DNA from: a virus
Taxonomy: Duplodnaviria; Caudoviricetes
DNA length: 64,000 bases
Reading direction: 5' to 3' (one strand)
IMG/VR virus record: IMGVR_UViG_2806311045_000001
Coordinates: 6,218 to 70,217 of that record
A program made the position numbers and the translations under genes. Below the pieces are notes generated by a model, which saw nothing but the letters and a program-made list of their open reading frames with translations, did no database searches and was not told where the DNA came from. Positions 18,544 through 21,933 of the stretch are shown here, piece after piece (position 1 is the first letter of the stretch; each line of letters opens with the position of its first letter).

Positions 18544-18909
18544 CTACGCCGAAAGTTCGTCGGCGATTTCGCAGGCGGTCACGAAGGCCGTGAGATGGGG
18601 CAGGTCACGCGGGATGCCGTAGATCTGGCTGAGCCCACCGTTCGATCTGCGTTGCATCCACAGAGCCGCCGTGGAGTCGATGGCATCGGTAAGTGTCTGG
18701 CCACCGTGGAGGGCGTTGCGGACTTCATCCGCAAAGTGGCGTCCGAATGCGCTGTCGAGGAAGAGGCGAACGGCCTCAAGGGTCGAACCGGTGGCCGTCG
18801 CGACGGCCGTCATCGCCAGCGGCCAGGCTTCGGCGGCGCGCTCCTGCAGGGCGCCGTAGAATCCCCAGCCCTCGTTGCGGGTGGCGGGAATCTGGTCAGT
18901 AGTGGTCAT
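18544..18909 (-). CDS. Small phage protein (paralog A)
   Basis: GFYG...AAEAWPLAM..VATATG...VRLFLDSAFGRHF. Confidence 0.75.
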   Translation of the reverse strand: MTTTDQIPATRNEGWGFYGALQERAAEAWPLAMTAVATATGSTLEAVRLFLDSAFGRHFADEVRNALHGGQTLTDAIDSTAALWMQRRSNGGLSQIYGIPRDLPHLTAFVTACEIADELSA

Positions 18910-18945
18910 GGTGTGTTCCTTCTTGAGCGTCGTTGTGATGGCACC

Positions 18946-18975
18946 AGTAACGCGCTGTTCTAGCCGAAAGCCAAG
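18946..18975 (-). promoter_or_regulatory. 30-bp motif copy 2
   Basis: CTTGGCTT-tcggcta-GAACAGCGCGTTACT, 37 nt before 18909. Confidence 0.78.
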
Positions 18976-19011
18976 GCTGGAGCTCAAACGCAACGCAGAC
19001 CAGATCGAGAG

Positions 19012-19041
19012 CTTGGCTCGTGCGGCAGGCAGCGCGTTACT
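19012..19041 (+). promoter_or_regulatory. 30-bp motif copy 3
   Basis: CTTGGCTC-gtgcggc-AGGCAGCGCGTTACT, 34 nt before 19075. Confidence 0.7.
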
Positions 19042-19074
19042 GGTGCCGTCACCACAGCGCCGCGAAGCGCGGCA

Positions 19075-19443
19075 ATGCAAACCATGTATCAAGCGATCAA
19101 CACAACCAACAGAGCAGCCGGCTTCTACGGCACGATGGGCCAGTACGCTGCTGAAGCTTGGCCGCTGGCGATGGCGGCGATCTCGCGGGCAACAGGAGCC
19201 GCGCCGCGAGTGGTGCGGTTTTTCTTGGATAGTGCGCACGGGGAGCGGTTTGGTGAAGACCTGCTCACTGCCCTCGCACTGGGGCTGCAGAGGGCCATCG
19301 ACCACGTGACCGAGGAATGGATGGCCCGCGCGGTGGATGAGCAGACCGCCAAGACCTGCGGCATTCGTTCCGGCCCGTCCTACCTGAAGAGCCATCTGGT
19401 CGCCAGTGCTGTCGAGGTCAGGCTCCTGGGGGATCTCGCGTAA
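19075..19443 (+). CDS. Small phage protein (paralog B of 18544-18909)
   Basis: GFYG...AAEAWPLAMAAISRATG...VRFFLDSAHGERF. Confidence 0.72.
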   Translation: MQTMYQAINTTNRAAGFYGTMGQYAAEAWPLAMAAISRATGAAPRVVRFFLDSAHGERFGEDLLTALALGLQRAIDHVTEEWMARAVDEQTAKTCGIRSGPSYLKSHLVASAVEVRLLGDLA

Positions 19444-19595
19444 CACCCCGCCTATTGCGCAGCGTGCGGGCACTGTGCCCCGCATGCTGTGTGGCGCGGC
19501 GACGCACTCACAGCGTGGCACCTAGCGCGCGCGCCGCTGCTTCGCGCCAGCACGGAAACCGCCCAGGAGGGCGGCACCGCAATGCAGCAGGTGGA

Positions 19596-19784
19596 TCAGA
19601 TTTCGGGGTCTTGGGGGTACAGGTCGCCGCTGGTGATATCGGCGACGTAGACGACGTCGCGGAAGTCGCCGGGCTCATCGGCGATGCTGACGCCGCCGAT
19701 GGCGGTGAGCGCGACGCCGTATTTGCGCGTGAGGGCGGTGAGTTCGGTGACGAAAGCGTTGTAGTTGGCGGTGGTGATGTCCAT
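19596..19784 (-). CDS. Small hypothetical protein (62 aa)
   Basis: AAGGA RBS then MDITTANYNAFVTELTALTRKYGV. Confidence 0.7.
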   Translation of the reverse strand: MDITTANYNAFVTELTALTRKYGVALTAIGGVSIADEPGDFRDVVYVADITSGDLYPQDPEI

Positions 19785-19820
19785 GTTGGCGTCCTTGGTT
19801 GATGTCGTTGCGCCACCGGT

Positions 19821-19850
19821 ATGAACGCGCTGTTCGAAGAAGAAGCCAAG
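19821..19850 (-). promoter_or_regulatory. 30-bp motif copy 4
   Basis: CTTGGCTT-cttcttc-GAACAGCGCGTTCAT, 37 nt before 19784; overlapped by hairpin 19838-19868. Confidence 0.8.
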
Positions 19851-19881
19851 CTGTTCCTGGCTTCTTCTCCGTGAGTTGCGA

Positions 19882-20232
19882 TCAGTCGACGCGGGCCACG
19901 TACCGGGCGTAGTCGCTACCCTCCGGATTGACATAAAGGGTGGGGCGGCCGGGCGCGGTGACCTCGATGCAGAGGTAGCTGCCGAGCCTGCCGCCACCCT
20001 TGCCGCGCAGCCAGTCGCGGGACACCAGCAGACCGCTCGCGAAGTCGTCAAATTCAGCGGTGGTGAGTTCCTTGGTCTCGGTGACGTAGACCTCGACGTA
20101 TTCCTTGCCGCGCACCTCGCTCAGGTCAGCCGGCTTGCGGGCGAAGGGCAGGCGCTTATGCAGCTTTTCGGTTTCGATGATCTTGTCGCCGATGACCACA
20201 GTGCAGGGGTTGCGTTTGATGGTGTTGCTCAT
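19882..20232 (-). CDS. Small phage protein (DUF6329-like, tentative)
   Basis: AAGGAG RBS; ...LYVNPEGSDYARYV C-terminus. Confidence 0.68.
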   Translation of the reverse strand: MSNTIKRNPCTVVIGDKIIETEKLHKRLPFARKPADLSEVRGKEYVEVYVTETKELTTAEFDDFASGLLVSRDWLRGKGGGRLGSYLCIEVTAPGRPTLYVNPEGSDYARYVARVD

Positions 20233-20274
20233 GGCGTTCTCCTTGAAGTTGGCGTCGTCAATCACGACAACGAC

Positions 20275-20304
20275 ATGAACGCGCTGTTCCCGCCACAAGC
20301 CAAG
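20275..20304 (-). promoter_or_regulatory. 30-bp motif copy 5
   Basis: CTTGGCTT-gtggcgg-GAACAGCGCGTTCAT, 43 nt before 20232. Confidence 0.8.
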
Positions 20305-20359
20305 CGCTGTCCCCAGCTTCATGCGGAACCGCTGCTCGCGCAGGCGGCCCCGTGCGACA

Positions 20360-20866
20360 TCAAGTGGACTGGTCGGCTTGCTCGGTGCACTCGGATTCGA
20401 TGGAGTAGCGGCGGACCGAGATGATTTTGAAGCCGTGCTGCTTCTTGAGCGGGCCACAAACGGTCGCGATCACGGTATTCGGCTGCCAGCCGGTTGCTTC
20501 ACACATTTCCTGCATCGTGGCGCCTCCGGGCCGGCGCATCAGCTCAACAATGTGGGCTAGCTTGGTGTCCTCGCGCATACGCTGCGGTTTGCGCGTAATC
20601 GCCCGGAACGGTTCGGCTCCGGAGGCGAGGGCAGCGGCCTGCGATGTGTCGAGTTCGAGCATTTCGAACACTCGGTACCCTGCGGGCGTGACCAGCCAGT
20701 CGGTGCCGGACTTGGCAATCAAGGTGCGATTGGCGAGGCCATTGAGCGCGAACAGGCGTGCACCACCTTTGACGGTCTCCGGGAACCAGTCCAGTCGGCC
20801 GTTGGAGTCTTTGATCGCACGGGTCAGGATCGCCCGTTGTGCTGGAGTGAGTGGTTTCGTGATCAT
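20360..20866 (-). CDS. DUF3489-like HTH protein (copy 1)
   Basis: TKLAHIVELMRRPGGATMQEMCEATGWQPNTV. Confidence 0.78.
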   Translation of the reverse strand: MITKPLTPAQRAILTRAIKDSNGRLDWFPETVKGGARLFALNGLANRTLIAKSGTDWLVTPAGYRVFEMLELDTSQAAALASGAEPFRAITRKPQRMREDTKLAHIVELMRRPGGATMQEMCEATGWQPNTVIATVCGPLKKQHGFKIISVRRYSIESECTEQADQST

Positions 20867-20901
20867 GCGTTGCTCCTTTGAGATGGTTTGATCGTGACGT
20901 G

Positions 20902-20931
20902 ATGAACGCGCTGTTCGAGGTACAAGCCAAG
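20902..20931 (-). promoter_or_regulatory. 30-bp motif copy 6
   Basis: CTTGGCTT-gtacctc-GAACAGCGCGTTCAT, 36 nt before 20866. Confidence 0.8.
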
Positions 20932-20948
20932 AGTTGTTTGCGGCATCA

Positions 20949-20981
20949 CGCGGGCCCGCTGACATCGCAGTCGGGCCCGCG
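20949..20981 (-). terminator. GC-rich hairpin after DUF3489 copy 2
   Basis: CGCGGGCCC...GGGCCCGCG 9-bp arms; no clear U tract. Confidence 0.45.
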
Positions 20982-20986
20982 CGACA

Positions 20987-21502
20987 TCAAGCCGACTGGT
21001 CGGCCTGCACGCCATCCGTAGCTTCGATCCGATAGACGCGTTCGCCGCCGGCCGACTTCTCGGAGACGATGATCAGGCCGAGCCGCTTCTTGAAGGTGCC
21101 GGCGAACGCGCCGCGCACGGTGTGGGCTTGCCAGCCGGTCGCCTTGCAGATCTCGCCGATCGTTGCGCCTTCGGGATGACGGAGCATCGCGATCACCTGG
21201 GCTTGTTTGCTGTTCTCACGCGTGCGTGGCGCCTTTCGTGCGTCCTTGCTCTGTGCTTCTGCGTCGCCGGCGGGTTCGTCTGGCTGCGGTGCGTCGAGGC
21301 CCAGCGCGCCATAGCCCTGGGCTGAGACAAGCCATTCGGTACCCGCAGCCGCGATAAGGGCGCGCTTGGCGAGGCTGTCGACAACCTTCTTGCGCGCGCC
21401 GCCCTTGATGTTGTCGGGGAACCATTCGATCTTGCCACCGGTGTGATGGATGGCGTAGGCGAGGATGGCGTGCTGTGCCGGGGTCAGTTGTTGCGTGGTC
21501 AT
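20987..21502 (-). CDS. DUF3489-like HTH protein (copy 2)
   Basis: RENSKQAQVIAMLRHPEGATIGEICKATGWQAHTVRGAFAGTFKKRLGL. Confidence 0.85.
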   Translation of the reverse strand: MTTQQLTPAQHAILAYAIHHTGGKIEWFPDNIKGGARKKVVDSLAKRALIAAAGTEWLVSAQGYGALGLDAPQPDEPAGDAEAQSKDARKAPRTRENSKQAQVIAMLRHPEGATIGEICKATGWQAHTVRGAFAGTFKKRLGLIIVSEKSAGGERVYRIEATDGVQADQSA

Positions 21503-21537
21503 GTGTTGCTCCTTCGAGGTGGTTTGAACGTGGTGTG

Positions 21538-21567
21538 ATGAACGCGCTGTGCGGGGAAGAAGCCAAG
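21538..21567 (-). promoter_or_regulatory. 30-bp motif copy 7
   Basis: CTTGGCTT-cttcccc-GCACAGCGCGTTCAT, 36 nt before 21502. Confidence 0.8.
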
Positions 21568-21606
21568 CGCTTTCGTTGGAGAGGCGGGTGGTCCCGCCCC
21601 CAGCTG

Positions 21607-21867
21607 TCAGTCTTTCTCTTCGTCTTCGCCGCTCTCGATTTCCTCGATGGTGTCCAGCAGGGTGCATCCCGATCTGCCGAGATAGCCGTGGTCGTCGGAG
21701 ATCGCCATCGTGAGGTGCGCAATCCAGTAGTCCTCGGCGCGATCCAGTGCGCTGCTGAATCCGCCTGCTTTCAGCAGGCCGCGCGCGTTCTCGATCAGTT
21801 CGAGCATCTGTTGCTGGATTTCGGTCAGCTCTTCGACCACATCGTTTCGGGTCAGGGTGTCGCTCAT
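21607..21867 (-). CDS. Small acidic hypothetical protein
   Basis: GGAG RBS; MSDTLTRNDVVEELTEIQQQMLELIE. Confidence 0.7.
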   Translation of the reverse strand: MSDTLTRNDVVEELTEIQQQMLELIENARGLLKAGGFSSALDRAEDYWIAHLTMAISDDHGYLGRSGCTLLDTIEEIESGEDEEKD

Positions 21868-21903
21868 CGTTTGCTCCGGTTGAGGTGTTGTGTTGATGGG
21901 CAC

Positions 21904-21933
21904 ATGAACGCGCTGTGCTGCACAGAAGCCAAG
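21904..21933 (-). promoter_or_regulatory. 30-bp motif copy 8
   Basis: CTTGGCTT-ctgtgca-GCACAGCGCGTTCAT, 37 nt before 21867. Confidence 0.8.

What the first reader, a model, noticed from the sequence alone, without database searches (positions are those of the whole stretch)
18544..21933. Cassette-like array of hairpin + motif + RBS + small gene units running against late transcription
Seen: six small minus-strand genes each carry their own motif copy. GC hairpins lie at several junctions (19838-19868, 20949-20981, 21583-21598, and ~19460-19490 between convergent genes). Two genes are DUF3489-like paralogs. Established analogy: T4-type phage PeSL promoter/stem-loop units shuffle small early genes by recombination between repeats. 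Inference: the shared 30-bp motif acts as promoter and as homology for gain or loss of host-takeover or anti-defence genes.
Basis: partly seen in the sequence, partly recalled or inferred. Interest (0 to 1): 0.7.

Follow-up and report, generated by a model that had tools for sequence, protein, structure and literature searches.

The report
Swappable phage genes under ancient promoter
In a Ralstonia prophage, seven small genes each start behind the same 30-base signal, which relatives use as the joint for gaining and losing genes; a matching signal heads the equivalent genes in gut Firmicutes phages, yet it fits no standard promoter and its reader is unknown.

Summary
Confirmed and extended. 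Between the ParB-methylase genes and terS lie seven, not six, single-gene units, each behind CTTGGCTT-N10-CAGCGCGTT(CA/AC)T; one is inverted. Two more copies precede the DUF2924-serine recombinase operon and a post-lysin gene. In 105 related intervals there are 48 architectures. Gain/loss junctions overlap the motif in 14 of 26 event classes (1.4-5.4 expected) and cross over in either box, so recombination is short-homology, PeSL-like, not site-specific. The motif has sigma70 geometry, but no register gives A-11 plus T-7. It is nearly absent from five host chromosomes and the prophage has no sigma gene, so it is probably a phage-private, factor-dependent promoter. The scan found this motif before on other proteobacterial prophages. 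New here: Firmicutes phages (Ca. Heliusvirales) carry a homologous motif before the genes beside terS, before their recombinase operon and before a shared DUF6329-like gene. DUF3489 is a tandem winged-helix protein but is undetected there, so it is not the universal reader. Promoter activity, timing and anti-defence function are untested; no cargo gene matches a known defence or anti-defence family.

The parts
21904..21933 (-). Motif copy 1, 31 nt from the terS start codon on the other strand
21607..21867 (-). Unit 1 gene (family F6, 86 aa, no family hit); swapped for F7/DUF6900/F9 or absent in relatives
21583..21598 (-). GC hairpin after unit 1, z -2.5
21538..21567 (-). Motif copy 2
20987..21502 (-). 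Unit 2 gene, DUF3489 (171 aa); model shows two winged-helix domains (residues 2-69, 93-167) and a disordered linker
20949..20981 (-). GC hairpin, z -4.3
20902..20931 (-). Motif copy 3; left end of the 1081-bp block (units 3+4) that L010/L017/L089 lack, crossover in the right box
20360..20866 (-). Unit 3 gene, diverged DUF3489 paralog (168 aa, 45% identical to unit 2)
20275..20304 (-). Motif copy 4
19882..20232 (-). Unit 4 gene (116 aa, phrog_21303), homologous to DUF6329 proteins that sit behind the related motif in Firmicutes phages
19838..19868 (-). 16-bp hairpin whose 3' arm is the left box and spacer of motif copy 5 (z -5.6)
19821..19850 (-). Motif copy 5
19596..19784 (-). Unit 5 gene (family F5, 62 aa; weak phrog_34881)
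19455..19500 (.). Stem-loop between convergent units 5 and 6 (z -1.0, weak)
19075..19443 (+). Unit 6 gene, inverted paralog of unit 7 (phrog_8020, 122 aa); a 464-bp insertion relative to L017
19012..19041 (+). Motif copy 6 (2 mismatches), back to back with copy 7
18946..18975 (-). Motif copy 7 (ACT variant)
18544..18909 (-). Unit 7 gene (phrog_8020, 121 aa); confident all-helical model with no PDB match at Z>=5; 828 related 50%-clusters
18505..18537 (-). Hairpin between unit 7 and the methylase stop codon (z -2.2)
1060..1089 (-). Motif copy before the DUF2924-serine recombinase operon, inside the 3' end of a small conserved ORF
50818..50847 (+). Motif copy after the lysis genes, before a 98-aa gene (50878-51174)
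15882..18502 (+). Left flank: two ParB-N6/N4 methylase fusion genes
21965..22501 (+). Right flank: terminase small subunit
6435..7259 (+). Sak4-like annealing protein, candidate for short-homology crossovers (inferred role)

Best explanation
The array is a row of solitary transcription units (promoter, leader with RBS, one small gene, hairpin) in a variable slot between the ParB-methylases and terS of a serine-integrase temperate phage. SHOWN: units are gained, lost and swapped by crossover within the 30-bp motif or the similar sequence beside it, at no fixed nucleotide. INFERRED: the crossovers are short-homology recombination, probably by the phage's Sak4-like protein. INFERRED: the motif is a phage-private promoter. 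Host RNA polymerase holds the TTG -35 box, but the -10 lacks the A-11/T-7 pair, so firing needs a phage-supplied factor that reads the invariant right box. INFERRED, weakest step: the factor switches on the recombinase operon, the array and the post-lysin gene together shortly after infection or induction, a lambda CII-like establishment regulon. Here the leftward promoters would also oppose the late transcript, and the tandem winged-helix DUF3489 may damp the regulon. A homologous signal runs the same two gene sets in Firmicutes phages.
For: Variation and junctions: (14 of 26 classes overlap the motif; 1.4 expected anywhere, 5.4 if junctions are limited to intergenic DNA). In clean cases the upstream flank and spacer come from one copy and the leader from the next, or the switch lies in the left box. 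Promoter geometry: TTGGCT-17-GTTMMT with Y-R at positions 36/37 in 78% of 446 copies against 2-4% in neighbouring registers. ATG sits exactly at position 37 before a tyrosine integrase and before short ORFs in ten HTH-NusG elements. Not a plain sigma70 site: A-11 with T-7 in at most 6% of copies in any register; the scan finds none. Phage-private: in five genomes 18 of 19 matches lie in one prophage-sized region each. Regulon: 38 of 170 genome hits precede DUF2924; in two prophages that operon runs on into the replication genes. Cross-phylum: (183 copies against 1 for the reversed pattern). Sak4-like gene. CII logic: PMC5300877.
Against: No activator was identified. The prophage has no sigma r2 or r4 match, DUF3489 is undetected in Firmicutes phages, the 745-aa/HTH pair is missing from relatives that keep the motif, and DUF6362 does not align with Firmicutes DUF1492. 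In Firmicutes the units point the same way as the late genes, so opposing late transcription cannot be the general purpose. Event classes are not phylogenetically independent, two or three are duplicates, and the null treats junctions as points, so P of about 2e-4 is optimistic. Twelve classes lie outside the motif. Logo positions inside the search patterns are partly self-selected, and the Firmicutes +1 is ambiguous (36/37 versus 37/38).
Confidence: 0.58

Rival explanations
1. Host sigma70/sigmaA reads the motif unaided as an entry promoter, and the invariant boxes are an operator for an array-encoded repressor, DUF3489, one winged helix per box. This is the CUP/ArdK or Reg576 logic of transient expression on entry.
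For: DUF3489 is in 105 of 105 intervals, including all TerS-anchored ones, and sits behind the motif itself. Its two different winged helices suit two non-palindromic boxes one turn apart. The -35 is near consensus (TTGACT in variants). Precedents: PMC5027574, PMC6294495.
Against: No A-11/T-7 pair in any register. DUF3489 is not detected in Firmicutes phages that have the homologous motif. In AcaML1 the DUF3489 gene has no motif in front while DUF2924 keeps it.
Confidence: 0.18
2. The motif is read by an alternative, ECF-like sigma factor (host-coded, or supplied in trans), since 7-mer, 16 nt, then (C)GTT matches ECF promoter layout as I recall it.
For: G at -12 and T at -11 in proteobacterial copies. 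One Firmicutes relative encodes sigma70-r4-like proteins below cut-off.
Against: No sigma gene in this complete provirus. Host chromosomes lack the motif, so it is not a host regulon. The same sequence occurs in hosts from Betaproteobacteria to Nitrospira. The TTG -35 is primary-sigma-like.
Confidence: 0.1
3. The units are morons: the motif is a weak promoter active in the stable lysogen and the genes modify the host or exclude other phages.
For: Single-gene units antisense within the late region and after the lysin are classic moron positions (own knowledge). TA-like and HU-like genes also land in this slot.
Against: The same motif heads operons that continue into replication genes, and in Firmicutes it points into terS. 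No PADLOC match.
Confidence: 0.1
4. The motif is a site-specific recombination site (integron-like) used by the serine recombinase or another enzyme to move cassettes.
For: Near-invariant boxes, a fixed spacer length, and junctions at the motif.
Against: Crossovers map to the left box, the right box, the leader or the upstream flank in different events. Single copies precede core genes. There is no dyad core, and the fixed distance to start codons is unexplained.
Confidence: 0.04

Closest known systems
PeSL cassettes of T4-type phages RB49/phi1 (Arbiol et al. 2010, PMC2839356)
   Same: A repeated promoter plus stem-loop before small genes; gene loss leaves one chimeric repeat; the stem-loop can overlap the -35 box (28% of 587 copies here have an inverted left box, mostly 5 or 9 nt upstream).
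   Different: PeSLs are consensus sigma70 promoters, about 100 bp, about 50 per lytic genome, with activity measured. This motif is 30 bp, 9 copies, non-consensus at -10, in a temperate phage, and also heads the integrase operon.
CUP regulon of IncN plasmids (PMC5027574) and p576 establishment genes (PMC6294495)
   Same: Repeated upstream elements make small operons one regulon; CUP-mediated rearrangement is reported; a candidate regulator lies inside the array.
   Different: Plasmid leading-region systems with a known repressor (ArdK, Reg576) and anti-restriction cargo. Here no repressor is shown and no ard-like gene was found.
Lambda CII regulon pI/pRE/paQ (PMC5300877)
   Same: One signal couples the integrase promoter with promoters that oppose lytic transcription; activator-dependent.
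   Different: No CII homolog or TTGC direct repeat is seen here; copies are many and serve as recombination joints.
SAS/ESAS repeats of cluster K mycobacteriophages (PMC3203893)
   Same: Conserved repeats of unknown reader before small non-structural genes of temperate phages.
   Different: SAS overlaps the RBS and ESAS is an inverted repeat. This motif lies 30-45 nt upstream, has promoter geometry and a different sequence.
Ca. Heliusvirales methylase-terminase region (PMC11283538) and phage AcaML1 (JX507079)
   Same: The same slot between ParB-methylase and terS, a serine recombinase, a shared DUF6329-like gene, and a homologous motif (shown here).
   Different: The paper does not contain the words promoter or motif. 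Firmicutes units are co-oriented with late genes and carry amidoligase/DUF7698 cargo. AcaML1's array is operon-like without a motif before DUF3489.

Membership tests
PeSL cassette | Repeated element directly upstream of small variable genes | tested here: met
PeSL cassette | Stem-loop in or beside the promoter | tested here: met
   (median z -2.9 upstream of internal copies, mononucleotide shuffles)
PeSL cassette | Gene gain/loss by recombination between repeats, leaving a chimeric repeat | tested here: met
PeSL cassette | Consensus sigma70 -35/-10 hexamers | tested here: not met
   no register with A-11 and T-7
PeSL cassette | Measured promoter and terminator activity; mini-circles | not testable with these tools
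CUP/ArdK-type establishment regulon | Element-encoded repressor binds the repeat | not testable with these tools
   DUF3489 is a candidate by fold only
CUP/ArdK-type establishment regulon | Anti-restriction (ard) cargo | tested here: inconclusive
   No Pfam/PHROG/PADLOC name for the cargo; DUF932 occurs in two other arrays
ECF sigma promoter | Cognate sigma gene in the element | tested here: not met
   (profile searches; a very diverged sigma is not excluded)
ECF sigma promoter | Host genes sharing the motif | tested here: not met
   one stray match in five genomes
Integron-like / site-specific cassette array | Fixed crossover position | tested here: not met
Lambda CII regulon | Common signal at integrase and anti-lytic promoters | tested here: met
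   (position and orientation only)
Lambda CII regulon | CII-family activator and its direct-repeat site | tested here: inconclusive
   No CII PHROG among the early genes scanned; no direct repeat in the logo; not all genes scanned
DUF3489 (PF11994) | Score above the Pfam gathering cut-off | tested here: met
   108.6 and 64.3 bits, cut-off 29.5

The most novel reading that the evidence does not exclude
The motif is an undescribed promoter class, old enough to be shared by temperate phages of Proteobacteria and Firmicutes. An unknown phage factor lets housekeeping RNA polymerase open a -10 element lacking the A-11/T-7 pair, coupling integration or excision to a self-shuffling bank of uncharacterised host-interaction genes.
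Probability: 0.4. Interest if true: 0.82.

Novelty: new variant of a known kind. Interest (0 to 1): 0.6.

Why it matters
The array extends PeSL-type cassette shuffling to a large, little-studied group of temperate phages, with junction-level evidence. The motif is also a handle. It marks the candidate regulon in any member from Ralstonia prophages to gut Heliusvirales, lists dozens of uncharacterised small proteins (one with no matching solved fold) as candidates for anti-defence or host-control screens, and poses a testable question: what opens a promoter without the usual -10 bases, in a prophage with no evident CI or sigma? If a phage factor does it, the pair would be a new transcription switch, possibly orthogonal to the host.

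Tried and rejected
A literature search for the motif strings gave only primer-like coincidences among the 25 papers listed, and DUF3489 appears in one general paper. No phiC31 promoter paper was found, so that recalled analogy is not used. The Atlas gave no name for unit 7 or the 745-aa protein. Unit 7 had no longer fused forms, no PDB match at Z>=5 and only uncharacterised viral matches; this does not prove a new fold. DUF3489 had no PDB sequence hit. Rejected readings: peptide-level constraint (third positions are invariant, the frame to the next gene varies, and the overlapping ORF is missing in some DUF2924 loci); a LexA-like dyad (the GAAC half is about 83% conserved and the ACT variant breaks it); sigma54 (no GC at the required distance, and TTGAC variants lose the GG); a MerR-type long spacer; an Rfam RNA (none in the array). 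DUF6362 against DUF1492 gave no alignment. Unit 5 was scanned in the wrong frame; it was redone for PHROGs and PADLOC but not for Pfam. No complex prediction was run, since no protein-protein claim is made. Breakpoints in Firmicutes arrays were not mapped.
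Full report
Setting. The window lies in a 70.2-kb provirus record classed as complete. Its closest named records are Ralstonia prophages and, distantly, Acidithiobacillus phage AcaML1. The prophage runs from a DUF2924-serine recombinase operon through replication genes (including a Sak4-like annealing protein), a weakly Q-like DUF6362 gene, two ParB-methylase genes, the array, terS and the virion and lysis genes.

Observation. The motif reads CTTGGCTT-N10-CAGCGCGTT(CA/AC)T on the gene strand. 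It has nine matches in the window against 0.05 expected. A seventh heads a plus-strand paralog of the last gene, and two lie outside the array, before DUF2924 and after the lysis genes. Three of the four hairpins are significant; the one at 19460-19490 is weak. The 19838-19868 hairpin uses the next motif's left box as its 3' arm. An inverted left box lies upstream of 164 of 587 distinct copies, mostly at 5 or 9 nt, against about 18 expected.

Shuffling. Loci were fetched with terS and DUF3489 and cut between the methylase and terS. The 105 distinct intervals hold 2-7 motif copies in 48 architectures, built from about a dozen gene families in a fairly fixed order. Among close pairs, 14 of 26 simple indel classes have junctions overlapping the motif; 1.4 are expected at random and 5.4 if junctions are confined to intergenic DNA. 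The P value (about 2e-4) is optimistic because classes share ancestry and the null uses points. The single cases are clearer. L010, L017 and L089 lack this window's units 3 and 4, and their remaining motif has the flank and spacer of copy 3 and the leader of copy 5. Other events switch in the left box, in the leader or upstream. There is no fixed cut site, which argues for short-homology recombination and against an integron-like system. That Sak4 does it is inference. The inverted unit is a lineage-specific insertion that ends 13 nt before copy 7 and appears at two array positions.

What the motif is. With TTGGCT as -35, a 17-nt spacer puts GTTMMT at -12 to -7 and position 37 at +1. A pyrimidine-purine step sits at 36/37 in 78% of 446 copies, against 2-4% one base either side. 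In other elements ATG starts exactly at 37: a tyrosine integrase gene and 8-16-codon ORFs ahead of an HTH_17-NusG gene. This fits a leaderless start but is indirect. No register gives both A-11 and T-7 in more than 6% of copies, so by established sigma70 rules the site should be weak unaided. In five whole genomes, 18 of 19 matches fall in a single prophage region, in Nitrospira with the same three-place layout. The provirus has no sigma region 2 or 4 match. Of 170 genome hits with a downstream ORF, 38 precede DUF2924 and most of the rest precede array families. In two prophages the DUF2924 operon points straight into the replication genes. I therefore read it as a phage-private, factor-dependent promoter of an early or establishment regulon, comparable in logic to lambda CII acting on pI and paQ (PMC5300877). 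This step is inferred; no RNA data could be obtained.

Cross-phylum link. A relaxed metagenome scan gave an intermediate form ending in GTTAAT before an amidoligase gene. That led to Firmicutes phages, among them records classed as Ca. Heliusvirales. They carry CTTGCTAT-N11-AGAGTGATRTAT (also TTGACT forms) before genes between the methylase and terS and before the serine recombinase operon. I first recalled this pattern from memory and then tested it. In the Firmicutes loci there are 183 copies against 1 for the reversed pattern (those loci were selected on the motif), ahead of 31 gene families, often three or four copies per locus. Unit 4 of this window is homologous to a DUF6329 gene that sits behind the motif in Clostridium phages (29% identity, HMM E about 1e-12). 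Same slot, same spacing, same two targets and a shared cargo gene make common descent more likely than convergence. The Heliusvirales paper does not mention promoters or motifs. In those phages the units are co-oriented with the late genes, so 'against late transcription' is a feature of this branch only.

Cargo. DUF3489 folds as two winged-helix domains (best Z 9.3 and 8.7, not clearly above other winged helices) joined by a variable linker. It is present in every interval, so it is a core gene and a plausible regulator, but it was not detected in Firmicutes phages. Unit 7 gives a confident helical model with no PDB match at Z>=5 and 828 related clusters. Other arrays carry DUF6900 and DUF932. 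Nothing matches PADLOC. Anti-defence or host-takeover function is neither shown nor excluded.

Comparison and verdict. The array works like PeSL cassettes (PMC2839356) and resembles the CUP regulon (PMC5027574). It fails PeSL membership on the consensus-promoter criterion and differs in heading a core integration operon. Earlier notes of this scan described the same proteobacterial motif in other prophages; I re-derived those claims here and do not count them as support. My look-ups found no note linking it to Firmicutes. Verdict: real, a new variant of a known kind, interest 0.6. Shuffling is shown, the promoter role is likely (about 0.8), and factor dependence with early timing is about even.

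Noticed in passing
window 13834-15745 (+): Group II intron (Rfam D1-D4 13894-14011, D5-6 15669-15744; RT 14417-15655) just downstream of a lambda cosQ-like GGGTCCT at about 13738 (cos resemblance from memory).
   Followed up: partly
window 1031-1222 (-): Conserved 63-aa ORF whose 3' end contains the DUF2924 motif copy; its N-terminal helix is conserved to AcaML1 gp5 and other relatives, and the ORF is absent in some lineages that keep the motif.
   Followed up: partly
window 2670-5909: No CI-like gene found; a 745-aa unknown and an HTH_17 gene stand where the Nitrospira prophage has what look like XRE and ImmA-like genes (L554, read by eye); both are missing in L552/L553.
   Followed up: partly
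window 51741-51829 (-): C4 antisense RNA (Rfam RF01695) near the right prophage end.
   Followed up: no
window 12900-13465 (+), 35948-36609 (-), 32829-33119 (-): By eye: a ParDE-like pair, a PIN/Phd-like pair and an H-NS-like gene; not scanned against families.
   Followed up: no
window 53334-63494 (+): 3386-aa filamentous haemagglutinin-type TpsA gene, probably host DNA flanking the prophage.
   Followed up: partly
L548 10001-14625 (also L283, L343): Another phage group has the motif after its lysis genes, before an HTH_17-NusG fusion, a serine recombinase and two ParB/RepB genes.
   Followed up: partly
L366 2072-2518 (-): Motif variant with ATG at the predicted +1, before a truncated tyrosine integrase.
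   Followed up: partly
L195 5021-5050 (-): Exact motif upstream of phaC in a Brevundimonas genome; a single case that may be chance.
   Followed up: partly
L258, L308, L410: Small elements with DUF2924-recombinase and/or short HTH_17 genes, several behind their own motif; possibly satellites using the same signal.
   Followed up: no
L004, L014, L015, L055 array intervals: Motif-less insertions in the same slot, identified by eye: nucleotidyltransferase-HEPN pair, antitoxin-like gene, HU-like gene.
   Followed up: no
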